Positions 2,593-45,181 are shown, counted from the first letter of the stretch. The stretch is 64,000 bases of DNA from an uncultured bacterium (GCA_963718515.1 OY970354.1:174363-238362); one strand, 5' to 3'. Numbers and translations: made by a program. The notes: generated by a model from the letters alone, not told the origin.

Positions 2593-3940
2593 ATGCAACT
2601 TACTTTCTATGGAGGTACGGGTGAAGCGACGGGCGCGAACTATATTTTGGAATCGAACGGCACAAAGATCATGGTGGACTGCGGACTTCACCAGGGGAGC
2701 CACTATGCGGAGCGCGAGAATTTTGAACCGTTCGCATATGATGCGTCGGCGATCACCGCGGTCTTTATCACCCACTCTCACTTGGATCACATCGGTCGCC
2801 TGCCAAGCCTGGTGAAGGCCGGCTTTAAGGGAGTTATTTATTCCACGAGCGCCACGCGCGATTTTGCGGAGTTGATGTTGATCGATTCGGAGCACTTGCT
2901 TTCGAACGAAGCCGAACGCGAAGGGCGTGCCGCGCTTTATAACGAGCAGGACATCGAGCGCGTGATGGAATTATGGAAGGGGCTTAATTATCATCAACCG
3001 GTCGAGGTCGGCGGATTCAAAGTTGAGCTTTATGACGCCGGACATATTCTGGGATCGGCGATCATCCACGTGGAGGCGGAAGGGAAGACCATCGTGTTCT
3101 CGGGAGACCTTGGCAACACTCCTGCGCCCATCATTAAGCCCACGGAAAAAGTTGCGTCCGCGGATTATTGTCTGATCGAATCCACATACGGCGACCGCAT
3201 CCACGAAAATATCGCGGGGCGAAAGCAGATGCTCGAGACTGCGGTCGTCGAGACGGTCAAAGCAGGCGGCGTGTTGATGATCCCGACATTCGCGATGGAG
3301 CGCACGCAGGAATTGCTTTATCACCTGCACCAGCTATTTCAGGAAGGAAAACTGCCGCCGGTGCCGGTATTCATCGACAGCCCGCTCGCGATAAAATTGA
3401 CCGCGGTCTATAAAAAGCACGAGGATTATTTTAATAAAGCGACGGAGGACATTGTAAAGTCCGGCGATGATATTTTGAACTTCCCCGGCCTGCGACTGAC
3501 GCTCACAACCGAGCAGTCGAAGGAGATCAATAACGTTCCGCCGCCGAAGATCATCATCGCGGGTTCCGGCATGTCGAATGGCGGTCGCATTCTGCACCAC
3601 GAACTGCGGTATCTTCCCGACCCCAAGAGCGAGATCATTTTCGTGGGCTATCAGGCGGACGGGATCGATGGGGCGGCAGTTGCTTGAAGGAGCCACGGAA
3701 GTGAAGATCTTTGGCGAGACGGTGCCCGTGCGGTGCAGGAAGCTCAACATTCCCGGCTATTCTGCGCATGCGGACCAGCCGCACCTGCTTGACTGGCTGA
3801 GCTCTATGAAAGCCTCGCTAAAAAAGGTGTTTGTCGTGCAGGGCGAGCAGGCCTCGAGCGAGATACTGGCGCATAAGATCATCGACGGATTCGGTGTGCC
3901 GGCGGAAGTGCCGCATCTCGGGGAAAGTGTTACACTATAA
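2593..3940 (+). pseudogene. MBL-fold beta-CASP RNA-metabolising hydrolase, one frame break
   Basis: HSHLDHIGRLP (HxHxDH motif) and a beta-CASP region. The C-terminal part (GRQLLEGATEVKIFGETVPV...GYSAHADQPHLLDWL) continues in the +1 frame. Removing one A near 3663 restores GYQADGSMGRQLLEG. Confidence 0.8.
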
Positions 3941-4527: not shown

Positions 4528-4783
4528 GCGGCCGGCGAAAGTAAAGCCCGTCGGCAAGGTGACGCATTACTATGCGCACATTAAGGTGGCGATCGTTAAG
4601 TTCAATACGAATATAAAGACCGGCACGGAATTATATTTCAAAGGTGCGACGACGGATTTTAAAGAAGGGGCGAAGTCGATGCAATTCGACCATACGCCCG
4701 TGGCGACAGCGAAAAAAGGAAAGCAGATCGGCATCAAGTTGAAGAAGCGCGTTCGTGAAGGAGACCTGGTATATAAAGGATAA
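4496..4783 (+). CDS. small EF-Tu domain-2-like beta-barrel protein
   Basis: 95-aa ORF. The core VGKVTHYYAHIKVAIVKF..GTELYFKG...GKQIGIKL..VREGDLVY resembles translation-factor domain II. The true start may be the GTG at 4559. Confidence 0.45.
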   Translation: MQKRTSAKSNKRPAKVKPVGKVTHYYAHIKVAIVKFNTNIKTGTELYFKGATTDFKEGAKSMQFDHTPVATAKKGKQIGIKLKKRVREGDLVYKG

Positions 4784-4797
4784 AAGCTCGGCGCCGT

Positions 4798-5919
4798 ATG
4801 TCAAAAAAATCTATTACCATCGTGGCGATCGTTGCCGCGGCAACGATCGGGGAAGGCGTGTTCGCACTGCCATATGTCATCCAGGTATCGGGATGGCTTT
4901 TGAGCCTCGGTTATTTTATTGCGCTCACGATCGTCGTTTCCACCGCGCATATCGTTTATTTGCGGACGCTCGCCACGGTGCATGAAAAAGAGCGCCTGCT
5001 TGGCCTCACGCGGAAATATTTTGGCGCCACCGGTTTTTGGATCGGATTCCTGGCCATTGTCATCGGGCTTATGCTCGGATTTGTGGCGTATCTTGTGCTC
5101 GGCGTACAGTTCGTGGGTATTTTGGTGCCTGGAATTTCACCGACCGTCGCACTCGCGCTCTTTTGGTTTTTGCTCGCATGCCTCATTTGGGGGAGCGAGG
5201 GAAAGATCGCGTGGCTTGAAGTGATGGGCATCATTCTCATCTCGTGCGCGATATTTTTTATTTTTATATCAGGCCATCCTATCGCCGCACTTGCCACCAT
5301 CCCACCCGCGGTCGCCGGGAACTTTTTCCTTCCCTTCGGTGCTGCGCTTTTTGCGCTCGCCGGATGGACGAGCGTAGAGCCGGTGTATGAGCTTGCGCGT
5401 TCTAAAACGGTGGACTCCAGCCGATTCAATGCAAATCTTTTGTGGACATTCGTTGCGGGTACCGCGCTCGCCGGGTTGTTGTACTGGCTCTTTGCGCTCG
5501 GAGTGATCGGCGCGGGCGGCAGCGTCGCGATGGACACGATATCGGGCATCGCGGGTTGGCCGTTCTGGAGGAAGGATATTTTGGCGATGATCGGGATCCT
5601 CGCGGTCGCCGTCGTTTCTCTCCCGCTCGCGCGCGAGATCCGCGGTGCGCTTGAAAAGGATCTTGGGTGGAATCCGCTGGCTTCGCGCCTCGTAATTATT
5701 TTTCTCCCGCTCCTGTCGGTGCTCCTGGGGTTCAACAACTTTCTCCTCATCGTAAGCATCGCCGGAGGCGTCTTCCTTAGCGCGCAATATCTTTTGATCA
5801 TTTCCGTGGGACGGCGGACGCTTGCGCTCTCGCTGCGCGAAAAAATATTTCTGGATATCATCGCGGGAATCTTTGTCTGCGCCACGATTTACTCTATATA
5901 TGTGTTTGTAGTAAGATAG
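4798..5919 (+). CDS. polytopic membrane transporter, amino-acid permease-like
   Basis: 373 aa with about 11 hydrophobic segments. The N-terminus IGEGVFALPYV resembles aromatic amino acid/AAAP-type permeases. Confidence 0.5.
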   Translation: MSKKSITIVAIVAAATIGEGVFALPYVIQVSGWLLSLGYFIALTIVVSTAHIVYLRTLATVHEKERLLGLTRKYFGATGFWIGFLAIVIGLMLGFVAYLVLGVQFVGILVPGISPTVALALFWFLLACLIWGSEGKIAWLEVMGIILISCAIFFIFISGHPIAALATIPPAVAGNFFLPFGAALFALAGWTSVEPVYELARSKTVDSSRFNANLLWTFVAGTALAGLLYWLFALGVIGAGGSVAMDTISGIAGWPFWRKDILAMIGILAVAVVSLPLAREIRGALEKDLGWNPLASRLVIIFLPLLSVLLGFNNFLLIVSIAGGVFLSAQYLLIISVGRRTLALSLREKIFLDIIAGIFVCATIYSIYVFVVR

Positions 5920-6783: not shown

Positions 6784-7425
6784 ATGGATAAGCTGGTGGA
6801 GCTCAGGAAGATCGAGGCGGAACTTGCGGCAAACGTATCCTTGCCGCTCCGCGAATCGAACCTTGTGTTCGGCGAAGGCAACATCGACTGCGAAGTGATG
6901 TTCATCGGCGAGGCGCCGGGCGTGAATGAAGACCGCTTGCGCCGCCCGTTCGTCGGGCGCGGCGGCCAACTGCTCGATGACATGATCCGCGGGCTTGGTT
7001 GGAAGCGCGAAGGCGTCTATATCACAAACATCGTCAAGCGTCGGCCGCCGGAGAATCGTGATCCGTTGCCGCAAGAGATAGAAGCATACAAGCCCTACCT
7101 CACTCGGCAGATCGGGATCATCCAGCCCAAATTGATCGTCACCCTCGGGCGCTTTTCCATGAATTATTTTTTGCCGGAAGCGAAGATCACGCGCGACCAT
7201 GGCCGGCCGCTTACGATCGATGGCCGGACGATATTCCCGGTCTACCACCCCGCGGCGGCGCTCCGCTCAACGCAAATGATGGAGGTATTGCGCGGCGATT
7301 TTAAAAAGATCCCGAGCGTGCTGTCGGGCGAGTTTCGGATAGAGATGCCGCCCGCGTTCGCGGCACTCGCCGCCAAGCCCGCGAAGCAGGCGCCGGAAAA
7401 GCCCAAGCAAGCAGGGCTCTTCTAG
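6784..7425 (+). CDS. uracil-DNA glycosylase, family 4
   Basis: The GEAPGVNEDRLRRPFVGRGGQLLD motif and the C-terminal HPAA are typical of family-4 UDG. TATACT at 6772-6777 lies 6 nt before the ATG at 6784. Confidence 0.85.
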   Translation: MDKLVELRKIEAELAANVSLPLRESNLVFGEGNIDCEVMFIGEAPGVNEDRLRRPFVGRGGQLLDDMIRGLGWKREGVYITNIVKRRPPENRDPLPQEIEAYKPYLTRQIGIIQPKLIVTLGRFSMNYFLPEAKITRDHGRPLTIDGRTIFPVYHPAAALRSTQMMEVLRGDFKKIPSVLSGEFRIEMPPAFAALAAKPAKQAPEKPKQAGLF

Positions 7426-12186: not shown

Positions 12187-12720
12187 ATGCCGTCAGCAAA
12201 AGAAATCGATGAATCAAAGCGCATTCCGACCAAAAAACAGGTGGTTGCGGGATTTGTGGTATATCGCAAGACGACGGACGGAATAAAGTTTTTGCTCTTA
12301 TATAGACGCGGCAATTACTGGAACTTTCCGAAGGGTCACTTTAAGCCCGGCGAGCGGAGCATTGACGCCGCACTGCGCGAGCTCGAGGAAGAGACGGGCA
12401 TAAAAAAGAGCGAGCTCCGGATGCTCCCGAACTTCCGCGCCTACGAGCGTTTTTATTTCAAGATCGGCAACCAGGGCATCTACGACACCGTCATTTTATT
12501 CCTTGCCGAGACACACAAGGCGGAGATCAAAATTGAGCCGCGTGAACACAGCGGCTATGGCTGGTTTCTTTACCACGACGCGGTCAACGTGATCGGCAAA
12601 AAATATGGCGATACGCGAAAAGTGCTCAAGCAGGCGAGCGATTATCTAAAGCCGCATCGCCGCCCTGCGGCAAAACCCGCCGCCGGCACGTCTGCACATT
12701 CGCCACAGTTGGTAAAATAA
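12187..12720 (+). CDS. NUDIX hydrolase
   Basis: Nudix box GHFKPGERSIDAALRELEEETGI. The start is chosen at MPSAKEID behind the promoter. Confidence 0.8.
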   Translation: MPSAKEIDESKRIPTKKQVVAGFVVYRKTTDGIKFLLLYRRGNYWNFPKGHFKPGERSIDAALRELEEETGIKKSELRMLPNFRAYERFYFKIGNQGIYDTVILFLAETHKAEIKIEPREHSGYGWFLYHDAVNVIGKKYGDTRKVLKQASDYLKPHRRPAAKPAAGTSAHSPQLVK

Positions 12721-12769
12721 AAAACACCCAACGCCGAACTATCATCTTCGGGGAGGCGCTGGGTGTTTT

Positions 12770-13117
12770 TTATTTCTTCGCGGTTGCGACGACTTTCTTA
12801 AACACTTCCGGCTCATGCTCCGCAAGGTCTGCCAAGATCTTCCTGTCAAGTTTTATTCCTGATTTCTTGAGTGCGGCGATGAATCTGCTGTAGCTCATCC
12901 CTTCGTTGCGGATCGCGGCGTTGATCTTGACGGTCCACAGTTGGCGGAAGGTACGTTTCTTTTCCTTGCGGCCGCGGAATGCGTGCACCCAGGCGTGGAG
13001 CAAAGCCTCCTTTGCGGCGCGCTCTTTTGTACTGCGGCCCCACTTAAAGCCCTTGGTGTACTTAAGGGTCTTTTCGCGGTGCTTATGGGCAATGGTTCCT
13101 CGTTTTACGCGTGGCAT
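12770..13117 (-). CDS. rplT: 50S ribosomal protein L20
   Basis: MPRVKRGTIAHKHREKTLKYTKGFKWGRS... is a canonical L20 sequence. Confidence 0.95.
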   Translation of the reverse strand: MPRVKRGTIAHKHREKTLKYTKGFKWGRSTKERAAKEALLHAWVHAFRGRKEKKRTFRQLWTVKINAAIRNEGMSYSRFIAALKKSGIKLDRKILADLAEHEPEVFKKVVATAKK

Positions 13118-15184: not shown

Positions 15185-15197
15185 CATAAAAATAAAA

Positions 15198-15259
15198 AGA
15201 ACCCATCATTGTCGAGCGAGTGGACGTTCCTACGTCGGAGCGAGACAATGATGGGTTCT
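15198..15259. terminator. long bidirectional hairpin
   Basis: agaacccatcattgtc / gacaatgatgggttct (16 bp), extended by A/T tracts, with a 30-nt interior. It lies between convergent genes. Confidence 0.55.
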
Positions 15260-15265
15260 TTTTAT

Positions 15266-15475
15266 TTACTTTGCGCAGCAAGAGCAACCACCGAGCTTTG
15301 TCGCGCCGCCGATGATCAAAAGGATCGGCCATGTGATGTCTACGAAGCTCCATGCGAGCGTGCCTGTCGCTCCGAGGAGGAAGTCTAAACCGATAAGCAT
15401 GATGAGGATTGGCACCACTTTGTGATGCGGGCATTTGCAAACCTTGCCCGAGCCGACTATGTGCGATTCTTCCAT
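15266..15475 (-). CDS. small Cys-rich membrane protein
   Basis: 69 aa with CKCPHH and a GGCSCCAK C-terminus and two hydrophobic helices. No family recognised. Confidence 0.35.
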   Translation of the reverse strand: MEESHIVGSGKVCKCPHHKVVPILIMLIGLDFLLGATGTLAWSFVDITWPILLIIGGATKLGGCSCCAK

Positions 15476-22711: not shown

Positions 22712-22716
22712 TCACC

Positions 22717-22797
22717 AAAACAAAAACATCCTCTCACTTTTGACGGAAATGCCACCTAGGAAGGTGACCGCCAAAAGTGAGAGGGTGTTTTTGTTTT
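22717..22797. terminator. long hairpin after csp
   Basis: aaaacaaaaacatcctctcactttt / aaaagtgagagggtgtttttgtttt pair at 24 of 25 positions, with a 31-nt interior. Confidence 0.55.
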
Positions 22798-22865
22798 GCA
22801 TAGTGACAAAAGAAAAATCGCCCTAGCCGAGATGAGCGGCCGGGGCGATGGTTGGGAGTGAACTA

Positions 22866-36435: not shown

Positions 36436-36478
36436 AAAGACAAAAAACACCGCTCCCGAAGCGGTGTTTTTTGTCTTT
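36436..36478. terminator. bidirectional hairpin terminator
   Basis: aaagacaaaaaacaccgc / gcggtgttttttgtcttt flank the loop tcccgaa. Confidence 0.6.
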
Positions 36479-38986: not shown

Positions 38987-39017
38987 CAAATCAAGGAGAA
39001 TCCGTCTTAGTGATTAA

Positions 39018-39046
39018 AGCATAGCATAGGCATATTTGGAAGTCAA
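39018..39046 (-). promoter_or_regulatory. sigma70-type promoter of tRNA-Leu
   Basis: On the minus strand: TTGACT (39046-39041), a 17-nt spacer, then TATGCT (39023-39018). Confidence 0.45.
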
Positions 39047-39050
39047 TTGT

Positions 39051-39177
39051 TCCCATCCCACACGCCCTATGTCTTTTCTCGGGTACGCGTTCCGCGCTAC
39101 TGCGCGGCCGCTCCATCTCGCCGCCCTTCGGCGGCTCCGATAGCCCCTCGAAAAGACATAGGGCGTGTGGGATGGGA
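39051..39177 (+). repeat. hairpin-core element, copy A
   Basis: The 28-bp perfect arms are tcccatcccacacgccctatgtcttttc / gaaaagacatagggcgtgtgggatggga. They flank a 71-nt core homologous to copies B and C. Confidence 0.8.
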
Positions 39178-39216
39178 CGACGTGGCGTATACAAATTTTC
39201 CTGCTATACTTTTTCC

Positions 39217-39660
39217 ATGAATTCGGATTGTGTTTATTGCAGTTCGCCTGATATTCAGGCGCGAGCTATTACAAAAAATGATCTTGCGTGGGCGTTTCCT
39301 ACTAATATTCCTATCACGCCAGGACATGTGCTTATTTGTCCTGTTCGTCATGTTGAAAAATTTGAAGAGCTTACCGATCAAGAGAAGGCGGCCATTTTTG
39401 AATTGGCTTCGAAGATTAAAGAGGCATTAAAAAAATTATTTGGCGCGGAAGGATTTCACCATGCGTGGAATGAAGGGAAGATCGCTGGTCAGTCCGTGCC
39501 ACACTTTCATTTACATATCGTTCCGCGCAAACAGGGCGATGAGGGTATCGCTGAATACGAACCGAGAAAATTTCTCTATCGTCCTGGGTCGAGGGAAGCC
39601 ACGCCGGAGGCGGAACTGAGGAGTGTTGCAGAACAGATAAAAGAGATTATTAAGAAATAA
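39217..39660 (+). CDS. HIT family protein
   Basis: CVYC...TPGHVLICPVRH...VPHFHLHIVPR histidine triad. The start is chosen at MNSDCVYC, downstream of element A. Confidence 0.8.
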   Translation: MNSDCVYCSSPDIQARAITKNDLAWAFPTNIPITPGHVLICPVRHVEKFEELTDQEKAAIFELASKIKEALKKLFGAEGFHHAWNEGKIAGQSVPHFHLHIVPRKQGDEGIAEYEPRKFLYRPGSREATPEAELRSVAEQIKEIIKK

Positions 39661-39706
39661 GAGAAAGGGTCGCGAAGATTTTTCGCGACCCTTGCGGATG
39701 TTGTGC

Positions 39707-40312
39707 CTAGGATGAAAGTTCTCTCTTGATCGCCTCTGTAATGCTTGGCCAGTCGCGTTCCCAAAATGCATATCCATTTTGAACCCAGTGCATGACTTGC
39801 TGTTCGCCATCATCACCGAAATACCTCTGTTTGGCTTTGCCGGTTTCGACGTCGAACAAGTTTCCCAAGAATTGGGCGACCCGTATTGTCCTGAGGGATG
39901 GTTTCGCTTCTCCCTCAAGTTGCACCGACTTGAGTGCTCGCCAAAGCTCACAGTCAAAATCATGACCGTACAACATTGCTCCATGCGACTTGCGCGCACG
40001 TGCATGCGTGGGACTGGATCGGTTCTGGTTGTTCAGATAGAAAACTTCTACCTCCATCGTCCGGAGCTGATCGGCTATCTGGAGGAGCGTGAATGTGAGA
40101 GGAACCAATTTGGCGGGTACCCAATGGTTGTCGAAAATGACCGCACCAATTCCTCTTTCTTGGACAAAGAGTTTTAGGCTCTCGACCTCTTTAAATTCCA
40201 TACTGTCTGGAATTTCAGCTTGGGATCGGATGCTTGTCAGTCCCGAAATATGCTGAACCAATTCTACCGAAGCTCCCCAGCTCGGATAGGTGTTTACGAC
40301 AAGAATTTTCAT
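39707..40312 (-). CDS. hypothetical protein
   Basis: 201-aa ORF preceded by GGAGGAG. No family recognised. Confidence 0.45.
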   Translation of the reverse strand: MKILVVNTYPSWGASVELVQHISGLTSIRSQAEIPDSMEFKEVESLKLFVQERGIGAVIFDNHWVPAKLVPLTFTLLQIADQLRTMEVEVFYLNNQNRSSPTHARARKSHGAMLYGHDFDCELWRALKSVQLEGEAKPSLRTIRVAQFLGNLFDVETGKAKQRYFGDDGEQQVMHWVQNGYAFWERDWPSITEAIKRELSS

Positions 40313-40443
40313 GCTCTCCTCCTTGGAGTTCTGCCCATAACCTACACGTTTTTGGCGAGATTGTCAAAATAAACAAGCGCGAAGGCATATCTTTTTGAAA
40401 CCATCGTGTCTGCACGTCTGGTTTCAAAAAGATATGCCGAGCG

Positions 40444-42090
40444 CTATTTTAACACGCGTGCCGTATTTAGGTACCAGCTGGCGATTTCTCGGAATCGGTC
40501 GGAGGGATCAGTGAGAAAGTCCGTCGAAATACCCTGCACGTTCTTGTTGTTCACGTACACGTAGTCGGGGGAATAAAGGAAGATGGCCGGATAATTGGCG
40601 GCGATGTCCGCCTGCGCGGTTGCGAGTTCTGTTGCGGTTGATGTGCTGACCGGGTTCTGCCGCGCGCGTTCGATGAGCGAATCCACCGTGGGATTGCTAT
40701 AGATCGAAAGGTTAAGCCCGGGCGAAAAGTCTTGCGACGAATCCCAGAACGAGTATAGGTCTGAACTTGGCCCGAGCACATTACCAAAAAGCAGGGATTC
40801 GTAACTGCGATTCACGATGTCGTTGTTCACAATATTATTCGATGAGTCAGGCAGGATGTTCACTTGCACGCCGATCGCCTGCCACGCGGTCTGCAAATAC
40901 GATGCCGTGTTTGCGAGGAAGTCTATCTGCGGGACGGTCAGATTTACGACGAGCGGGATCGTTATGCCGCCGATTACCTTTGAGCGGAACGTGCTTGAAC
41001 CGGTGAGGGTCCAGCCGTCGTCACTAAGAAGCGTCTCGGCGAATGCGGGGGAAGACGTGGCGGCGGGAACGGCGCTGTAGTATTGCGCGCCCTGCGGAAC
41101 CGGGCCGAATTCTGGCGTGCCATTGCCGCCGAGTGTGGTGTTCACGAGCGCGTTTCGATCAACGGCGACGGAAAGCGCTTCGCGCACCGCCGGATCCTGC
41201 AGGCCGAGGTTCGTGCTCTGGTTGAAGAACACCGCATAGTACGCGGAGGTTGGCCAGGTGAAGACGTTGTATGGCCGCGCGATCTCCGTGATGTCCTCCG
41301 GTGACGCGTTACCGAACCCGTCGATCGTCCCGTTATTGAAACTTTGCACGAGCGTGTTCTCGTCGTTGAAAAAATCCAGCGTGAAATTATTTATAAGAGG
41401 ATGCGGGCCGCTCGTGCCCTGCCACGCGGTCAGTTGATATGAAGAAATGAATCCCTCGCTATTCTTGTTGTATGAAGAAAATTCATACGAGCCACTGCCC
41501 ACCGGCTTCAGATTATAATCCGAGAGATGCCAGTTGCCCGGCGGCGCGTCGGCAAAAAGGTGCTTCGGCAAAATATATAAATTTGCGAGCGTGTCGCCGA
41601 AGAATGCGTACGGACTCGAGAGCGTGAATTCCACTTCAAGCTCGCTCACACGGCTGACCGTCACGCCCTGCCAATTTTGGAAGAGCGGGGAATGTGCGTC
41701 GGGATCCTGTATGGATTGCACCGTGAAGACCACATCATCGCTCGTAAGCTGTTGCCCGTCCTGCCACGAAAGATTGTCTTTGAGCCGCACATCCCACGTC
41801 TTGAGGTCCGGCGAGGCGGTGATGCTTTGCGCGAGGTCGGGGAGATTGCTGTAGACCATCTTTACGAGGTCAAGGTCCGTTTGCGATGACGCGATCACCG
41901 GATTCACGTACTCCGGCTGGCCAAGGATGCCTTCAGCATATTGACCGCCCGCGGCGGGCACGGCCTCGGTGGCTTGTGAAATCACCATCCCGATGACGAC
42001 CACAAAGCTCACGATCGTTCCCGCGAGGGCAAGGACGAACACGATGCGTTCTTTTTTGGTGAGCGCGGCAAAGATCTTTTTAAGCCACAT
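40444..42090 (-). CDS. ABC-transporter substrate-binding protein, family 5 (peptide/nickel type), TM-anchored
   Basis: 548 aa with an N-terminal TM helix and an SBP_bac_5-like sequence (GILGQPEYVNP..., LKDNLSWQDGQQLTSDDVVFT). No adjacent permease or ATPase genes. Confidence 0.75.
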   Translation of the reverse strand: MWLKKIFAALTKKERIVFVLALAGTIVSFVVVIGMVISQATEAVPAAGGQYAEGILGQPEYVNPVIASSQTDLDLVKMVYSNLPDLAQSITASPDLKTWDVRLKDNLSWQDGQQLTSDDVVFTVQSIQDPDAHSPLFQNWQGVTVSRVSELEVEFTLSSPYAFFGDTLANLYILPKHLFADAPPGNWHLSDYNLKPVGSGSYEFSSYNKNSEGFISSYQLTAWQGTSGPHPLINNFTLDFFNDENTLVQSFNNGTIDGFGNASPEDITEIARPYNVFTWPTSAYYAVFFNQSTNLGLQDPAVREALSVAVDRNALVNTTLGGNGTPEFGPVPQGAQYYSAVPAATSSPAFAETLLSDDGWTLTGSSTFRSKVIGGITIPLVVNLTVPQIDFLANTASYLQTAWQAIGVQVNILPDSSNNIVNNDIVNRSYESLLFGNVLGPSSDLYSFWDSSQDFSPGLNLSIYSNPTVDSLIERARQNPVSTSTATELATAQADIAANYPAIFLYSPDYVYVNNKNVQGISTDFLTDPSDRFREIASWYLNTARVLK

Positions 42091-42109
42091 TGATAAAATT
42101 TAATGCTAT

Positions 42110-42331
42110 CTAGTGCGTCTGCGCGTAGAGCTGGTAAATGGCCAGCGCTACGAATGCCACGGAGAGCACGATCGTGGCGTAGAACACCAGCTTTTCCATT
42201 CCCCGCCGCGCCTGGTAGTATCCGCCGCCGTCTCCGCCCAAAAGCCCGGACATGCCGGAAGACCGCTCCTGCAAAAGGATGAGCGTGATGATGAGCGCGG
42301 AGAGAATAATTTGTATGATGGCGATGATCAT
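42110..42331 (-). CDS. secG: preprotein translocase subunit SecG
   Basis: 73 aa with two TM helices and the central LLQERSSGMSGLLGG motif. Confidence 0.8.
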   Translation of the reverse strand: MIIAIIQIILSALIITLILLQERSSGMSGLLGGDGGGYYQARRGMEKLVFYATIVLSVAFVALAIYQLYAQTH

Positions 42332-42696
42332 AATGCGAGGTGAATGATGAAGTTGATGATGCTGATGATAAGGGTGGCCAGGAACAAGGCCGGAATGTTT
42401 TGTATAATAATACTTCCGTGGAGGAAGTCAATGTGATCGGCGATCAAGGGGAGTATCCAAAGGATGATCGCGTTCACGATGAGCACGCCGATGCCGAGGG
42501 TCAGGATAATGATAGGGCCGAGGACGAGCGTGAGGATCGGCTTCAAAAGGAAGTTGAGCACCGAGAGCACGAGTGCGATCGCGATGAGCGTCAGCCAATT
42601 GCCGCCGAGCACGAACCCGGGCACGAACGTATTCGCCGCCCAGAGCGCGAGCGCATTGCCGCCCACTATTATTACGAGCCGTGCGAACCAATGCAT
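42328..42696 (-). CDS. phage-holin-family (DUF360/YvlD-like) membrane protein
   Basis: Four TM helices. LKPILTLVLGPIIILTLG is typical of the family. TATAAT lies 7 nt before the ATG at 42696, so the mRNA appears leaderless. Confidence 0.65.
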   Translation of the reverse strand: MHWFARLVIIVGGNALALWAANTFVPGFVLGGNWLTLIAIALVLSVLNFLLKPILTLVLGPIIILTLGIGVLIVNAIILWILPLIADHIDFLHGSIIIQNIPALFLATLIISIINFIIHLAL

Positions 42697-42727
42697 TGTT
42701 CTATTATAACATCCCTTCGCCCAAACT

Positions 42728-42837
42728 CTCATGCCTTAGTGTTTTTTCGGGCACGGTGTTCCGTTCCGCTGAACGGCCACCTCTTGCCTCGCCGCCTTCG
42801 CGGCTCCGGCTGTCCCTCAAAAACACTAAGGCATGAG
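42728..42837 (+). repeat. hairpin-core element, copy B
   Basis: The 19-bp perfect arms are ctcatgccttagtgttttt / aaaaacactaaggcatgag. They flank a 72-nt core that is 71/72 identical to copy C. Confidence 0.8.
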
Positions 42838-42876
42838 GGGCTGGGGTCGGTAGTGGTTATAAAAAGAGTGTTTTAA

Positions 42877-42901
42877 TTCGGATCCTGCCCGGCGCACCGC
42901 A
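42877..42901 (+). repeat. tRNA 3'-end-like fragment B'
   Basis: TTCGGATCCTGCCCGGCGCACCGCA reads as T loop, T-stem 3' strand, acceptor 3' strand and ACC. No 5' half is present. Confidence 0.6.
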
Positions 42902-42904
42902 AAC

Positions 42905-42932
42905 AAAAAAGCCCGCATCTCTGCGGGCTCGT
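42905..42932. terminator. hairpin terminator of the gpmI operon
   Basis: gcccgca-tctc-tgcgggc flanked by A and T tracts. Confidence 0.65.
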
Positions 42933-42935
42933 TTC

Positions 42936-43175
42936 TTACTCGTGTTCCTTCACTTCAATTGGTTGTGCTATCTTGTCGGGACGCAATCCTTCGTTGGTCA
43001 ACTCAAGAAACAGATTGTCGATTTTCTGACTCACTGCGATGAGTTGTGCCTGGTCGTATTTTTTTGAGGTGACGTTTCCTTTTACAACTCCAAGCTCTTG
43101 GATCGCTCCATCCAGGCTTTGTGCCAATTGTGCTTCGAGATATTCGTTATTCTCGGGCGGCTTCTCCATTCTCAT
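42936..43175 (-). CDS. hypothetical protein
   Basis: 79-aa acidic ORF downstream of gpmI on the same strand. Confidence 0.35.
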   Translation of the reverse strand: MRMEKPPENNEYLEAQLAQSLDGAIQELGVVKGNVTSKKYDQAQLIAVSQKIDNLFLELTNEGLRPDKIAQPIEVKEHE

Positions 43176-43206
43176 TGGTTTTTCTTTGGGTAACGACCTT
43201 TTCCAT

Positions 43207-44742
43207 TTATATCAATCCTTCGATTAGGCTCCGGCCGGTCATTTCGTCGGGCTTTTGGATGCCCATCACTTCGAGGATGGTGGGCGCGACGTCGGCGAGG
43301 GAGCCGAGCGTTTCGAGGTCGAGACGGTCGCTGTTCACGAATTTTTTTCCCTTGTATTGCTGGACGACGAGATAGAACGGCACGGGGCTTGCGTCGTGGC
43401 CGCTTTCCGGCTCGCCGGTCTTTTCGTCGATCATCTTTTCTATATTCCCGTGGTCGGAGGTGATGAAGAGGTTCGCGTCGGTGCTTTCCGCGGCCTTGAT
43501 CACGCGCGCAATTTGGTGGTCGATCACTTTGATCGCCTCAAGCGCGGCGGCGTAGTTGGCGGTGTGCGCGATCGTGTCGGGGTTTGCGTAGTTCACGAGA
43601 ATAAAATCAAAGCCGTGGTCGGTCATCGCTTCCACGAGGCGGTCGGTGATCGCTTCGGCCATCATCTGCGGATGCTCTTCGGGATGCGGGCTCGAATATG
43701 ACGGAATGAGCGTGCGATATTCGCCGGGGAACGGCGGCTCGCGCAGTCCGTTGAAGAAATACGTGACGTGTGCGTACTTGTATGTTTCGGCAAGGCGCAA
43801 TTGCGTGAGGCCGCCGTCACTCAACACTTTTCCGATGGGCTCCTGCACGTTGTCCGCGGGGAACGCGACGGGCACATCGAACTCGTCATCGTAGTGCGTC
43901 ATCGTCGCAACGTAGAGATCATTGAAGTGCACCGTCATGAATTCTTTGAAATCTTTTTTGATGAACGCCGAGGCGATCTGGCGGATGCTGTCCTCGCGGT
44001 AATTAAAGAAGACGAGCGAGTCGCCGTCCTGGATCTTTTTGTCTTCGCTGAAGCGGATCGCGGGAAGATATTCTTCGGTGGTGCCCTGCTTGTACGTGGC
44101 CTCGATGATCTCGGTGGGATCGGTCACGAGCGGGCCTGTCTGGCCGGTCATCGCTTGATACGCGGTCTCCGTCAGCCGCCAGTTGCCATTGCGTTCCATG
44201 CCGTAGTACCGGCCGATGAGGCTCGCCATATACTGCGCGGGGATCTCTTTCAAAAATTCTTGGACGGTGTGCGGTTCGGTGTCTTTTGCGTCGGCGAACA
44301 GATGGAGATTTATTTTGGTGACGCCTTCATCCTCCGCCATTTTGATCAGCGCCTTCAGGTGGTCGATCGAGGCGTGCACGTTTCCTTTGGTGAGCAATCC
44401 GGCAAAGTTGATGGCGGAATTATTTTTTTTTGCATGCTCGCATGCGGCCTTCAGCACGGCGTTATCAAAGAACGTGCCGTCCTGGATGGCCATCATGATC
44501 TTTGGGAAATATTGATAGAGCACTTTTCCGGCGCCGAGCGTCAAGTGGCCCACCTCGCTGTTGCCGATCTCGCCCCACGGGAGTCCGACCGCGATGCCGG
44601 ACGCTTGCAGGCTCGTCGTTGGATAGTTCGCCTGGAGCCAATCGAACGTCGGTGGCTGGGCGATGAAGAGAGGATTTGTCTCGTCCTTTCTGCCGATGCC
44701 CCATCCGTCAAGCACGACCAATACGGTTACTTTCTTTGCCAT
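43207..44742 (-). CDS. gpmI: 2,3-bisphosphoglycerate-independent phosphoglycerate mutase
   Basis: 511 aa. VLDGWGIG, GNSEVGHLTLGAG and ITSDHGN are canonical iPGM motifs. Confidence 0.9.
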   Translation of the reverse strand: MAKKVTVLVVLDGWGIGRKDETNPLFIAQPPTFDWLQANYPTTSLQASGIAVGLPWGEIGNSEVGHLTLGAGKVLYQYFPKIMMAIQDGTFFDNAVLKAACEHAKKNNSAINFAGLLTKGNVHASIDHLKALIKMAEDEGVTKINLHLFADAKDTEPHTVQEFLKEIPAQYMASLIGRYYGMERNGNWRLTETAYQAMTGQTGPLVTDPTEIIEATYKQGTTEEYLPAIRFSEDKKIQDGDSLVFFNYREDSIRQIASAFIKKDFKEFMTVHFNDLYVATMTHYDDEFDVPVAFPADNVQEPIGKVLSDGGLTQLRLAETYKYAHVTYFFNGLREPPFPGEYRTLIPSYSSPHPEEHPQMMAEAITDRLVEAMTDHGFDFILVNYANPDTIAHTANYAAALEAIKVIDHQIARVIKAAESTDANLFITSDHGNIEKMIDEKTGEPESGHDASPVPFYLVVQQYKGKKFVNSDRLDLETLGSLADVAPTILEVMGIQKPDEMTGRSLIEGLI

Positions 44743-44764
44743 GGCTTTATTTTAAATGAAATTT

Positions 44765-44900
44765 GGGGATTCTCATAGCGCAGGCTTTGCATTCTCTCGG
44801 GCACGGTGTTCCGTTCTGCTGAACGGCCACCTCTTGCCTCGCCGCCTTCGCGGCTCCGGCTGTCCCTCGAGAATGCAAAGCCTGCGCTATGAGAATCCCC
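44765..44900 (+). repeat. hairpin-core element, copy C
   Basis: The 32-bp perfect arms are ggggattctcatagcgcaggctttgcattctc / gagaatgcaaagcctgcgctatgagaatcccc. They flank the 72-nt core. Confidence 0.8.
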
Positions 44901-44946: not shown

Positions 44947-44973
44947 GGTTCGAATCCTGCCTGGCGCACCGCA
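44947..44973 (+). repeat. tRNA 3'-end-like fragment C'
   Basis: GGTTCGAATCCTGCCTGGCGCACCGCA. It is followed by the perfect hairpin 44974-45008 (gacaaaaaaagacatc-gaa-gatgtctttttttgtc). Confidence 0.6.
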
Positions 44974-45021
44974 GACAAAAAAAGACATCGAAGATGTCTT
45001 TTTTTGTCTGTCTCTGTTGTT

Positions 45022-45153
45022 GGGCAGGATAAGAACCCTTTAGGGTTCGGGAATTGGCAGCGAGGCGAAAATGAAAACTGCGCAAACGGCAAAGTTTGTT
45101 TTCATTTTCGACGAGCGAACCAATTCCGCGCGTTCTTACGCGCCATCCTGCCT
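45022..45153 (+). other. multi-hairpin intergenic structure D
   Basis: Closing helix ggcaggat (45023-45030) / atcctgcc (45145-45152). Nested inside are gaaccct-tt-agggttc, gggaattgg/ccaattcc, the perfect 13-bp pair cgaaaatgaaaac/gttttcattttcg, and gcgcg-ttctta-cgcgc. Confidence 0.4.
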
Positions 45154-45160
45154 GGCGCAC
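45145..45160 (+). repeat. tRNA 3'-end-like fragment D' (short)
   Basis: ATCCTGCCTGGCGCAC is identical to the core of C'. Confidence 0.5.
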
Positions 45161-45181
45161 ACGTGATATAATAAGTTAAAT

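What the first reader, a model, noticed from the sequence alone, without database searches (positions are those of the whole stretch)
39051..44900. Three hairpin-core elements: a near-invariant ~72-nt core clamped by copy-specific perfect 19-32 bp inverted repeats
The copies are A (39051-39177), B (42728-42837) and C (44765-44900), all in the same orientation. They share one architecture: left arm, UC, GGG, interior, CCC, UC, right arm. Within a copy the arms are perfect reverse complements (A 28 bp, B 19 bp, C 32 bp, no mismatch or wobble). Between copies the arms are unrelated in sequence. In contrast, the cores of B and C differ at a single base in 72 (ccgttcCgctgaacgg vs ccgttcTgctgaacgg). 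The core of A is diverged but keeps the fold through compensatory changes. Inner hairpin 1 is ccgtt-N6-aacgg in B/C and ccgcgc-tact-gcgcgg in A. Inner hairpin 2 is gccg-ccttcg-cggc in B/C and gccgcc-cttc-ggcggc in A. The strings gttcc, ctcgccgcc and ggctccg are retained. The elements are not terminators, since no U tract follows them. They do not look coding either: a stop interrupts one frame of the core, and the ORFs crossing them have no recognisable family. Each sits just upstream of a minus-strand gene. A is 4 nt from the -35 of tRNA-Leu, B is 31 nt from the holin-like ATG, and C is 22 nt from the gpmI ATG. One reading is a structured RNA whose closing stem is free to vary. The other is a miniature element that lands in hairpin loops or creates inverted flank duplications. 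Identical cores with unrelated perfect arms favour the second reading, or arm-to-arm gene conversion. I do not recognise it as a named RNA family or MITE.
Basis: seen in the sequence. Interest (0 to 1): 0.8.

Follow-up and report, generated by a model that had tools for sequence, protein, structure and literature searches.

The report
Y-shaped core palindromes mirroring native flanks
Three copies of an uncatalogued, conserved ~70-base Y-shaped fold in a tiny CPR (Paceibacteria-like) bacterium are each clamped by a perfect inverted copy of the native DNA next to it (promoter -35 boxes here; stop codons or a tRNA end elsewhere), which points to a DNA-level fold-back copying element rather than an ordinary RNA gene.

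Summary
A (39051-39177), B (42728-42837) and C (44765-44900) have perfect 28, 19 and 32 bp arms around a 71-72 nt core. The core folds as a three-way junction (closing GGG/CCC, hairpins P1 and P2).

No Rfam family matches, even at E<=10. I collected 21 copies from CPR genomes and metagenomes. In the fitted alignment 94% of cells are paired, 31 of 38 pairs show compensatory double changes, and only 5 of 773 cells are G-U.

The decisive result comes from syntenic relatives. Elements sit at the same sites upstream of gpmI, tRNA-Leu, the holin gene and an S1-domain gene. Empty sites carry one copy of the arm sequence and no palindrome. So one arm is native flank (promoter -35 box, last codons, tRNA ACCA) and the other is its inverted copy.

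Orthologous arms have diverged strongly between genomes, yet stay complementary within each genome. Cores are homogenised within genomes, differ between genomes, and are flipped at one site.

Best reading: a DNA-level palindromic element whose structured core seeds fold-back template switching, which creates and re-copies the arms. "Lands in hairpin loops" is refuted. A structured-RNA role is not excluded. The cellular function is untested.

The parts
39051..39078 (+). Element A, left arm (28 bp). It lies on the tRNA-Leu side. Its outer end is 4 nt from the TTGACT -35 box.
   Evidence: The orthologous arm in L164 has the same outer boundary.
39079..39149 (+). Element A, core: TC-GGG, J1 TAC, P1 (GCG-UU-CCGCGC-UACU-GCGCGG-C-CGC), P2 (AUC-UC-GCCGCC-CUUC-GGCGGC-UCC-GAU), AGC-CCC-TC
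   Evidence: CM score 98 bits
39150..39177 (+). Element A, right arm. It is the perfect reverse complement of 39051-39078.
38999..39229 (.). Extended degenerate palindrome around A (85-nt arms, 71% complementary). The tRNA-Leu and HIT promoter regions are imperfect mirror images, with TATGCT and TATACT at the same offset.
   Evidence: I1; 53% ungapped identity, p~0.013; L164 ortholog z=6.4
42728..42746 (+). Element B, left arm (19 bp). Its outer end overlaps the ATGAGA -35 box of the holin promoter.
42747..42818 (+). Element B, core (71 of 72 bases identical to the C core)
42819..42837 (+). Element B, right arm
44765..44796 (+). Element C, left arm (32 bp). It is native gpmI upstream DNA and contains the conserved box GCTATGAGAAT (-35 box ATGAGA at 44776-44771 on the minus strand).
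   Evidence: The box is single-copy in the empty sites of L159, L160 and L166.
44797..44868 (+). Element C, core
44869..44900 (+). Element C, right arm. It is an inverted copy of the native gpmI-proximal arm.
39018..39046 (-). Predicted tRNA-Leu promoter (TTGACT-17-TATGCT) abutting A
   Evidence: conserved in L164 and L166
42703..42732 (-). Predicted holin promoter (ATGAGA-18-TGnTATAAT). The -35 box overlaps the end of B's left arm.
   Evidence: TGCTATAAT directly precedes the holin ATG in relatives.
44749..44776 (-). Predicted gpmI promoter (ATGAGA-16-TAAAAT). The -35 box lies inside C's left arm.
42733..43206 (.). About 474 nt between the gpmI stop and the holin -10 box that are absent from L159, L164 and L166. 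Contents: B, a tRNA-3'-like motif, a bidirectional terminator and ORF79.

Best explanation
A, B and C belong to an undescribed family of intergenic palindromic DNA elements in CPR/Patescibacteria.

The heritable unit is a GC-rich, orientation-specific core of about 68 nt. Either strand of it folds into a three-way junction: closing GGG/CCC, hairpin P1 and hairpin P2. The long arms are not part of a mobile unit. One arm is native flanking DNA (a promoter -35 box, the last codons and stop of a gene, or a tRNA ACCA end). The other arm is an inverted copy of it.

Proposed mechanism (inferred, not shown). During replication the nascent strand that has just copied the native arm and the core folds back on the stable Y-shaped core. 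It then primes on itself, copies the native arm in reverse complement for about 20-40 nt, and returns to the template. This is Ripley-type intramolecular template switching. Repeating the event, or arm-to-arm recombination, keeps the arms identical while they drift between lineages. It also mirrors indels, and it occasionally flips or replaces the core. Cores within one genome exchange sequence by conversion.

The element therefore acts at the DNA level. Any cellular role is secondary and untested. Candidates are cruciform-dependent modulation or insulation of the abutting promoters, or a hairpin barrier at gene ends.
For: SHOWN:
1. The family is real and structured. There are 21 copies. In the fitted alignment 94% of cells are paired, and 31 of 38 pairs have double-sided changes. 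The covariation score is 0.654 against 0.164 in shuffles and at most 0.17 for slid partners. The hand-made alignment gives the same result.
2. Pairing is almost purely Watson-Crick. G-U makes up 5 of 773 cells, and both strands fold alike as RNA or DNA.
3. The arms are native sequence.
   - The gpmI box (G/C)CTATGCCAA..TTTCATCTAAAATA is present in all 7 relatives. It is single-copy with no palindrome in the empty sites (L159, L160, L166). It is mirrored on both sides of the core in the occupied sites (window, L158, L164, L173, L175).
   - Elsewhere the arms include the tRNA-Glu ACCA end (L024) and the last 2-4 codons plus stop of FtsH and three other ORFs.
4. The arms evolve in concert. Orthologous arms at the C, A and S1 sites differ by many substitutions and by indels, yet they are perfect or nearly so within each genome: C 32/32, 31/31, 25/25; A 28/28 vs 35/37; S1 30/30, 32/32, 26/26. 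Overall there are 15 mismatches in 594 arm bp, and 11 of 21 copies are perfect.
5. Where the core is degenerate (L164 C-site: G-U pairs, a loop deletion) the arms have decayed, with a 7-nt indel. L161 keeps only a truncated remnant.
6. Cores group by genome, not by site. Window B-C are 98% identical and L158a-b 94%. Orthologous sites are only 58-72% identical.
7. At the S1 site (flanking S1 proteins 89% identical) the core is inverted in L160 relative to L134 and L173.
8. There is polarity. All 12 transition mismatches put A/T in the 3' arm where G/C is expected (12:0). The native arm is the 5' arm in at least 10 of about 12 independent loci. This is what fold-back copying in one direction predicts.
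9. Mirror symmetry persists weakly beyond the perfect arms (Fisher combined p=1.7e-4; I1).
10. A lies between divergent promoters, and B lies behind a terminator. Both sit upstream of -35 boxes, so they are probably not in a transcript.

ESTABLISHED KNOWLEDGE: template switching corrects imperfect inverted repeats to perfect ones in bacteria (PMC5941160).
Against: - No direct evidence of mechanism: no intermediate forms and no population polymorphism were examined.
- The core has conserved unpaired nucleotides (J1 UAC, loops YGCU and CUUC, internal loop UC/UCC) and a strict strand-specific consensus: 97-98 bits on the plus strand against 27-32 bits on the minus strand. That pattern is typical of a functional RNA or of a protein-recognised single strand. 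Simple fold-back seeding does not require it.
- How a core reaches a new site is unknown. There is no target-site duplication and no linked transposase.
- A-, C- and S1-site elements persist across genomes whose gpmI proteins are only 74-77% identical to the window's, in very compact genomes. That suggests selection for a function I cannot name.
- In several loci the element directly follows a stop codon, so it must be transcribed there.
- The alignments used for pair counts were fitted to the model.
- The sample was seeded by sequence patterns, so it is biased toward conserved P2 variants.
- The mismatch asymmetry comes from few copies, some of them phylogenetically non-independent.
Confidence: 0.5

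Rival explanations
1. Structured non-coding RNA. The core is the functional RNA: a trans-acting small RNA, a protein-binding RNA or a ribozyme. The long perfect stem would be a processing clamp, for example an RNase III substrate. The closing stem is free to vary because only pairing matters.
For: - Covariation is strong in all internal helices, and loop and junction nucleotides are conserved.
- The consensus is orientation-specific.
- The core is conserved across CPR lineages. Source records are titled Parcubacteria, Saccharibacteria and Paceibacterota-like.
- Several copies lie directly after stop codons and must be transcribed.
- On the complementary strand the unpaired residues are purine-rich (GGA/GA internal loop, GAAG and AGCA loops). 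Nine of 15 arm mismatches would be U-G wobbles on that strand.
Against: - No Rfam match at E<=10.
- G-U pairs are almost absent (0.6% of cells). From general knowledge, natural RNA families usually carry several percent.
- There is no promoter or terminator inside or facing into the element. The flanking promoters face outward, and A sits between divergent promoters.
- Orientation relative to neighbouring genes is mixed, and it is flipped at an orthologous site.
- Selection on RNA stability cannot police every pair of a 30-42 bp stem, yet 11 of 21 copies are perfect, and indels are mirrored.
- Arm sequence is native promoter or coding DNA.
Confidence: 0.22
2. Folded single-strand or cruciform DNA site recognised by a protein. 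The core would be the binding or cleavage site of a structure-specific recombinase or nuclease (HUH/IS200-like, integron-integrase-like or a resolvase). Alternatively it nucleates supercoil-driven cruciform extrusion that sequesters the -35 box held in the arm, giving a supercoiling-sensitive promoter switch.
For: - Covariation is Watson-Crick only, as expected if both DNA strands must fold.
- Unpaired positions are conserved, which suggests sequence-specific recognition.
- -35 boxes lie inside or abut the proximal arm at the gpmI, holin, S1 and tRNA-Leu sites, and in L057 and L071.
- Position upstream of the same genes is conserved in relatives.
- Orientation independence, seen as the flip at the S1 site.
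- Core homogenisation within genomes would fit break-induced conversion.
Against: - No candidate protein is linked in any locus.
- Copies between convergent genes or after stop codons have no promoter to control (L161, L099, L154).
- Elements are lost or decayed in close relatives without any visible compensation (L166, L159, L164 C-site).
- Cruciform extrusion across a 70-nt spacer is kinetically demanding (general knowledge).
Confidence: 0.18
3. REP-like RNA hairpin: a bidirectional transcription barrier or a 3'-end stabiliser between transcription units. Pairing would be Watson-Crick only because both strands are transcribed.
For: - Strictly intergenic location.
- Many copies begin within 0-12 nt of a stop codon, or between convergent genes.
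- The hairpins are very stable on both strands.
- The genome otherwise uses long perfect bidirectional terminator hairpins.
Against: - No U tract follows any copy, and the terminator scan does not call them.
- A, B and C are shielded from incoming transcription (divergent promoters, an upstream terminator).
- This reading does not explain the conserved structured core.
- It does not explain why one arm is a copy of promoter DNA.
Confidence: 0.07
4. Miniature mobile element that inserts into the loops of pre-existing hairpins.
For: The genome has other long perfect hairpins, one of them (40384-40438) with similar inner-arm sequence.
Against: Empty orthologous sites have no palindrome (L159, L160 and L166 at the gpmI site; L166 at the tRNA-Leu site). 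Arms contain tRNA and coding termini, which cannot have been palindromic beforehand.
Confidence: 0.03

Closest known systems
Quasipalindrome correction / concerted evolution of inverted repeats by template switching (Ripley model; PMC5941160)
   Same: Arms are kept perfectly complementary while diverging between lineages. Indels are mirrored. Perfection decays with distance from the hairpin centre. The process is DNA-level and independent of transcription.
   Different: Described cases are short anonymous inverted repeats (arms of a few to about 20 bp, small spacers). Here a conserved, structured 70-nt core recurs at many loci and across CPR lineages and appears to seed the process. The arms are new inverted duplications of functional flank.
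REP/BIME elements and other bacterial intergenic palindromic repeats (ERIC, RUP, Correia/NEMIS MITEs)
   Same: Multi-copy, intergenic and hairpin-forming. Found near gene ends and promoters. No coding capacity.
   Different: In those families the stems or terminal inverted repeats are the conserved part, and MITEs carry target-site duplications. Here the conserved part is the interior, the stems are locus-specific native DNA, and there is no target-site duplication. No RAYT or transposase is linked.
Integron attC sites and IS200/IS605 ends (folded single-strand DNA recombination substrates)
   Same: Structure is conserved through covariation rather than sequence. Function could be on a folded single strand. 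Two small hairpins, as in LE/RE-derived PATE elements.
   Different: attC conserves the R/L boxes at the stem base and varies the centre, has extrahelical bases, and sits next to cassettes and an integrase. IS200/IS605 ends have a fixed target tetranucleotide and no flanking inverted duplication. None of these features is seen here.
Parvovirus/AAV inverted terminal repeat (T-shaped hairpin A-B-B'-C-C'-A', with flip and flop forms)
   Same: The geometry is the same: a long stem capped by two small hairpins at a three-way junction. Both orientations of the cap occur (flip at the S1 site).
   Different: Those are terminal structures of a linear ssDNA virus, with a conserved stem and a Rep nicking site. 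Here the elements are internal chromosomal sites with variable stems. There is no Rep gene, and nothing was found in the phage, plasmid or viral collections. The resemblance is recalled from memory only.
Structured RNA motifs with a variable closing stem (small self-cleaving ribozymes, Y RNA-like hairpins)
   Same: Three-way junction, covarying helices, conserved junction and loop nucleotides, multiple copies per genome.
   Different: No match to any Rfam model. Hammerhead (CUGANGA/GAAA) and twister signatures are absent. Pairs are Watson-Crick only. Stems are 19-42 bp, perfect, and made of promoter or coding DNA. No own promoter.
Bidirectional intrinsic terminators of the same genome (e.g. 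15190-15267, 36436-36478)
   Same: Long perfect hairpins in intergenic DNA.
   Different: Those terminators have A and T tracts outside the stem and small unstructured loops. The elements have T/A-rich tracts on the inner side of the stem, no external T tract, and a conserved 70-nt structured interior.

Membership tests
Any Rfam 15 RNA family | Score at or above the family's gathering threshold (or at least a low E-value) for a curated covariance model | tested here: not met
   No match overlaps A, B or C, even at E<=10. One search gives the same result for relatives.
MITE (e.g. Correia, RUP, ERIC) | Terminal inverted repeats conserved between copies | tested here: not met
   Arms of non-orthologous copies are unrelated. 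Only an inner ~6-8 bp YTTTT/AAAAR tract recurs.
MITE (e.g. Correia, RUP, ERIC) | Direct target-site duplication flanking the element | tested here: not met
   Flanks read directly: ttgt/cgac, aact/gggc, attt/cagg. No direct repeat.
REP/BIME with RAYT | Conserved imperfect palindrome stem with a 5' GTAG-type motif, and a RAYT (Y1 transposase) gene in the genome | tested here: inconclusive
   The stem is not conserved and has no GTAG motif. Only 64 kb plus the fetched loci were inspected for genes, and no Y1 transposase was seen among the annotated neighbours.
Integron attC | R''/R' core sites (RYYYAAC ... GTTRRRY) at the stem base, extrahelical bases, a variable centre, and an adjacent cassette array or integrase | tested here: not met
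   There is no RYYYAAC/GTTRRRY at the stem base. The centre is the conserved part. No integrase lies in the neighbourhood.
Intrinsic (Rho-independent) terminator | GC-rich hairpin followed immediately by a U tract | tested here: not met
   calls other terminators in the region but none at A, B or C. The outward flanks lack T tracts.
Hammerhead / twister / other small self-cleaving ribozymes | Family-specific conserved core nucleotides around a multi-helix junction, and self-cleavage | tested here: not met
   Sequence signatures: no Rfam ribozyme model hits, and no CUGANGA...GAAA on either strand. Cleavage activity cannot be tested with these tools.
Protein-coding insertion (e.g. Rickettsia palindromic element-like) | Open reading frame kept across copies, with indels in multiples of three | tested here: not met
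   A and B/C differ by 1- and 2-nt indels in P1a, J2 and P2b. The crossing ORFs have no Pfam hit. All copies are intergenic.
Inverted repeat homogenised by template switching (quasipalindrome correction) | Arms of orthologous repeats diverge between lineages but stay complementary within each | tested here: met
   C site in 5 genomes, A site in 2 and S1 site in 3.
Inverted repeat homogenised by template switching (quasipalindrome correction) | Direct demonstration of polymerase template switching (mutation spectra, reporter reversion) | not testable with these tools
   Needs a genetic assay or deep population sequencing.
Element inserted into pre-existing hairpins | Empty orthologous sites carry the palindrome without the core | tested here: not met
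   L159, L160 and L166 (gpmI site) and L166 (tRNA-Leu and holin sites) have a single copy or no arm sequence, and no palindrome.

The most novel reading that the evidence does not exclude
A new class of self-extending DNA element. A conserved Y-shaped hairpin core makes an inverted copy of whatever native DNA lies on its 5' side and keeps re-copying it. The copy can include promoters. The result is a set of perfect, locus-specific palindromes that could act as supercoil-responsive cruciform switches, or as generators of mirrored (divergent) promoters, in the streamlined genomes of CPR bacteria.
Probability: 0.3. Interest if true: 0.85.

Novelty: new variant of a known kind. Interest (0 to 1): 0.72.

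Why it matters
If the reading holds, this is a natural, recurrent case in which a specific DNA structure directs local sequence evolution. The structure creates and maintains 20-40 bp perfect palindromes out of functional flank, and these include -35 boxes and stop codons.

That would turn template switching from an anonymous mutational bias into the working principle of a defined genetic element. It would also give a testable link between DNA secondary structure and promoter architecture in CPR bacteria, whose gene regulation is almost unknown.

Even on the rival reading, the family is an uncatalogued structured motif with good covariation support, found in records from several CPR lineages, and worth adding to RNA/DNA motif libraries. 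In practice, such elements also complicate assembly, gene calling (ORFs run through them) and CRISPR/repeat finders in CPR metagenome-assembled genomes.

Tried and rejected
- Rfam at gathering thresholds and at E<=10: nothing.
- IMG/VR pattern scan: one chance coding hit family only.
- Phage and plasmid BLAST with the cores: nothing, or chance fragments inside genes.
- The genome and metagenome pattern scans were dominated by chance hits in GC-rich Actinobacteria and soil contigs. Only 3 of 32 and 6 of 120 were real.
- Exact look-up of the window's own gpmI product failed twice, so the source genome could not be scanned whole.
- MAFFT aligned the copies without gaps and out of structural register. 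I replaced it with an N-padded hand alignment.
- Tested whether the two HIT genes flanking A are an inverted gene duplication. Rejected: 29% identity. Only the promoter regions mirror each other.
- Tested strand of function from arm mismatches. Nine would be wobbles on the minus strand and three on the plus strand, which is not significant as a strand test. Read as an arm asymmetry (12:0) it is informative.
- Looked for further or degenerate copies in the window with filters off: only ordinary terminator hairpins.
- Considered an MDA or assembly artefact. Rejected, because the same sites are occupied in independent JGI, ENA, NCBI and Logan assemblies.
- Literature searches found no description of this element.

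Full report
OBSERVATION.

Direct reading of the window and an arm-finding script confirm three same-orientation elements.
- A: 39051-39177, arms 28 bp.
- B: 42728-42837, arms 19 bp.
- C: 44765-44900, arms 32 bp.

The arms have no mismatch. Each element reads arm-TC-GGG-interior-CCC-TC-arm. The B and C interiors differ at one base of 72. A differs by compensatory changes and small indels.

Either strand folds into the same shape, as RNA (z = -9.3 to -15.1) or as DNA. The shape is a long stem closed on a three-way junction with two hairpins:
- P1 = P1a + UU/C internal loop + P1b + YGCU loop.
- P2 = P2a + UC/UCC internal loop + P2b + CUUC loop.

The shared P2 string is expected 0 times by chance in the window. 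An exhaustive covariance-model scan finds only these three copies in 64 kb. The stated distances to the tRNA-Leu -35 box, the holin ATG and the gpmI ATG are right.

IS IT KNOWN?

No Rfam 15 family touches the elements, at gathering thresholds or at E<=10. The cores have no meaningful match in the phage or plasmid collections or in IMG/VR. ORFs crossing them have no Pfam family, and the indels between copies break any reading frame. Five literature searches found no description.

THE FAMILY.

- A pattern scan of GTDB genomes gave three true copies among 32 hits. The source records are titled Ca. Parcubacteria, Ca. Saccharibacteria, and an 881-kb uncultured chromosome.
- A metagenome scan gave six more among 120 hits.
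- Syntenic relatives reached through gpmI homologues gave the rest. The homologues are named Ca. Paceibacterota where named (loci).
- The total is 21 full copies plus one truncated remnant.

I made a hand-registered alignment, using N-padding to stop MAFFT collapsing the register. It gave 95.6% paired cells, 21 pairs with double-sided changes and no one-sided change.

Models R1 and R2 and the final 21-sequence alignment give:
- 94.0% paired cells.
- 31 of 38 pairs with compensatory double changes.
- Covariation score 0.654, against 0.164 in shuffles and at most 0.17 for slid partners.
- Internal helices 96.6-99.1% paired.

Even the 'invariant' P2b covaries in the wider set: GCCGC/GCGGC, GGCGC/GCGCC, GGCGAC/GTCGCC, GGCGGC/GCCGCC, AGCGC/GCGCT. 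Only 5 of 773 cells are G-U, and three of those lie in the two L164 copies, including the degenerate C-site copy. One caveat applies: the later alignments are fitted to the model.

CONTEXT IN THE WINDOW.

The neighbours are housekeeping genes: RNase J-like, two HIT genes, tRNA-Leu, an SBP_bac_5 protein, SecG, a holin-family protein, gpmI and a CmcI-type methyltransferase. No mobility gene is nearby.

The promoter scan places three of its six hits exactly at the left ends of the three elements:
- TTGACT-17-TATGCT for tRNA-Leu, 4 nt from A.
- ATGAGA-18-TGnTATAAT for the holin gene, with the -35 box overlapping the end of B's arm.
- ATGAGA-16-TAAAAT for gpmI, with the -35 box inside C's arm.

None of the elements is followed by a T tract, and none is called as a terminator. 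A lies between divergent promoters, and B lies behind the terminator of the upstream ORF. On this evidence the three copies are upstream of promoters rather than inside transcripts.

THE DECISIVE COMPARISON: ORTHOLOGOUS SITES.

The block gpmI-holin-SecG-SBP-HIT-tRNALeu-HIT-RNaseJ is syntenic in relatives whose gpmI is 74-77% identical to the window's.

1. gpmI site (C).
- Elements in the same place and orientation occur in L158, L164 (and its twins L163 and L165), L173 and L175.
- L161 keeps a truncated remnant.
- L159, L160 and L166 are empty.
- All seven aligned genomes share the promoter box (G/C)CTATGCCAA(A/T)-N-TTTCATCTAAAATA.
- In empty sites the box is single-copy and no palindrome exists. 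In occupied sites it forms the outer part of the gpmI-proximal arm and is mirrored in the distal arm.
- The proximal arms are homologous but heavily diverged, with indels: GAGAATGCAAAGCCTGCGCTATGAGAATCCCC / CAAAAGGATGTGCGTGTGCGCTATGCCAAAGC / TCAAAACGATGCATGGCTATGCCAAA / GAAGAGATGTGCCACACCTATGCCAAAGCC.
- Yet within each genome the distal arm matches: 32/32, 31/31 and 25/25, and 29/31 in L158.

2. tRNA-Leu site (A).
- L164 has an element with the same outer boundary next to TTGACT.
- Its arms are 37 bp with 2 mismatches, against 28 bp in the window. They are homologous at both ends but differ by about 10 bp of mirrored insertion.
- L166 is empty, with no palindrome.

3. S1-gene site.
- L134, L160 and L173 have homologous arms. 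The S1 proteins of L134 and L160 are 89% identical.
- The arms contain the -35 box TTGCAA, 16 nt before TATAAT.
- The arms are perfect in each genome (30, 26 and 32 bp).
- The core is of a different subtype in each. It is inverted in L160 relative to L134 and L173.

4. Holin site (B).
- L159, L164 and L166 have only 7-27 nt between gpmI and the holin -10 box.
- The window has a 474-nt insertion there: B, a tRNA-3'-like motif, a terminator and ORF79.
- L175 has a different insertion, but it also carries an element upstream of holin, with 35-bp arms and 1 mismatch.

Independent loci say the same thing about the arms.
- In L024 the arm starts with the ACCA end of tRNA-Glu.
- In L161, L154, L099 and L027 an arm contains the last 2-4 codons and the stop codon of a long ORF, FtsH in L161.

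So the arms are not brought by a mobile unit, and they are not pre-existing hairpins. One arm is native DNA and the other is its inverted copy.

DYNAMICS.

Across 21 copies there are 15 mismatches in 594 arm bp, and 11 copies are perfect.

Selection for hairpin stability cannot see a single mismatch in a 30-42 bp stem. Indels are also mirrored. Perfection therefore needs an active copying process.

Four further patterns bear on this.
- Where the core has degenerated (L164 C-site: G-U pairs, a loop deletion), the arms have decayed too, with a 7-nt indel.
- Beyond the perfect arms a weak mirror symmetry persists. The Fisher combined p over 15 copies is 1.7e-4. Around A the arms extend to 85 nt at 71% complementarity, so the tRNA-Leu and HIT promoters are imperfect mirror images. 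The HIT genes themselves are only 29% identical, so this is not a gene duplication.
- Cores cluster by genome rather than by site. Window B-C are 98% identical and L158a-b 94%. Orthologous sites are only 58-72% identical. That implies conversion or replacement among copies.
- All 12 transition mismatches place A/T in the 3' arm where G/C is expected (9 C·A and 3 G·T, with no A·C or T·G). The native arm is the 5' arm, in the model's orientation, at at least 10 of about 12 independent loci. L160, the flipped copy, is the clear exception. The simplest reading is that the 3' arm is the unconstrained copy, which collects GC-to-AT mutations between rounds of re-copying.

MECHANISM (INFERENCE).

These features fit intramolecular template switching as described for quasipalindromes. 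It is known to convert imperfect inverted repeats into perfect ones in bacteria (PMC5941160; Ripley's model as cited there).

The proposed sequence of events is:
1. A nascent strand copies the native arm and then the GC-rich core.
2. It snaps back on the Y-shaped fold.
3. It primes on itself and copies the native arm in reverse complement.
4. It returns to the template.

This explains six things:
- the locus-specific perfect arms;
- the polarity (native arm 5', copy 3');
- the variable arm length;
- the gradient of symmetry;
- the mirrored indels;
- the near absence of wobble pairs in the arms.

Recombination between the arms would add the flip seen at the S1 site.

Three things remain unexplained. 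I do not know how a core first reaches a site. I do not know why the core keeps strand-specific conserved unpaired nucleotides (97-98 bits on one strand against 27-32 on the other). I do not know why copies persist at the same promoters in very compact genomes.

These points keep two rivals alive.
- A structured RNA. Several copies directly follow stop codons and must be transcribed.
- A protein-recognised folded-DNA or cruciform site. One version of this is a supercoil-dependent switch that sequesters the -35 box carried in the arm. I recall an engineered precedent from the 1980s, which I did not check.

COMPARISON WITH KNOWN KINDS.

The element works like a quasipalindrome under template-switch homogenisation. 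It differs in having a conserved, dispersed, structured seed.

It fails the defining tests of several families:
- MITEs: no conserved terminal repeats and no target-site duplication.
- REP elements: no conserved stem.
- attC sites: no R boxes, and the centre rather than the base is conserved.
- Intrinsic terminators: no U tract.
- Rfam ribozymes or sRNAs: no model match.

Its geometry recalls the T-shaped AAV terminal repeat with flip and flop forms. There is no viral context.

VERDICT.

- The family is real, structured, uncatalogued, and found in records from several CPR lineages.
'Insertion into hairpin loops' is refuted.
- The mechanism and the cellular role are inferred, not shown.
- I rate it a new variant of a known kind (palindromic intergenic elements / quasipalindromes), with interest 0.72.
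- I give a 0.3 chance that it represents a distinct class of self-extending DNA element.

Noticed in passing
window 42882-42930, 44954-45011, 45145-45175; L158 ~5785-5810: A tRNA-3'-end-like motif (TTCGRATCCTGCCYGGCGCACCGCA) followed by an intrinsic terminator lies 45-55 nt to the right of B and C, and next to the orthologous L158 element. A third partial copy sits just before the -10 box of the CmcI-like gene. Promoter-like boxes (ATGAGG-N19-TATAAA right of B) could drive a ~70-nt RNA. Alternatively these are att-site remnants. In L158 a second element is followed by a fragment that matches the tRNA-Glu 3' end of L024 at 21 of 22 bases.
   Followed up: partly
window 42733-43206: About 474 nt (element B, the motif, a bidirectional terminator at 42909-42930, and an orphan 79-aa ORF at 42936-43175) separate gpmI from the holin gene. 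Relatives L159, L164 and L166 have only 7-27 nt there. L175 has a different two-ORF insertion at the same point. This looks like an insertion hot spot.
   Followed up: partly
L170 ~7270-7350; L158 ~4530-4605; L164 ~2810-2890 and ~3215-3290: Unrecognised tRNA-like modules sit in the RNase Y-gpmI spacer of relatives. Each has a 7-9 bp acceptor-like stem, a T-arm with a GGTTCGA-type loop and sometimes a terminal CCA. Each is followed by a stretch antisense to its middle hairpin, and then by a terminator. ARAGORN and Rfam do not call them.
   Followed up: no
window 40384-40438: Perfect 20-bp hairpin (GGCATATCTTTTTGAAACCA / 15-nt loop) downstream of the SBP gene. It has no external T tract. Its inner arm (ATCTTTTTGAAA) resembles the inner arms of the L062 and L134 elements. 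It could be a core-less relative or an ordinary hairpin. The CM scores about 21 bits on both strands.
   Followed up: no
window 38999-39229: The tRNA-Leu promoter and the promoter of the downstream HIT gene (39217-39660) are imperfect mirror images around element A. The same holds in L164. The HIT gene may owe its promoter to an inverted copy of the tRNA promoter.
   Followed up: partly
window 12715-12775, 15190-15267, 22716-22798, 36436-36478, 44972-45010: The genome's ordinary terminators are unusually long perfect hairpins (16-24 bp) with an A tract and a T tract on the two sides (bidirectional type). Perfect long inverted repeats may be generally favoured or homogenised in this organism.
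   Followed up: no
L160 17373-18704; L173 13864-15423: Large serine recombinase genes (Resolvase/Recombinase/Zn_ribbon_recom) lie 1-5 kb from the S1-site elements, in a region that has been rearranged between relatives.
   Followed up: no
L165 90-152: In one contig of the L164 species the gpmI-site element is cut off after ...GGCTCCGATA and continues into unrelated sequence. This is either a rearrangement inside the core or an assembly break at the palindrome.
   Followed up: no
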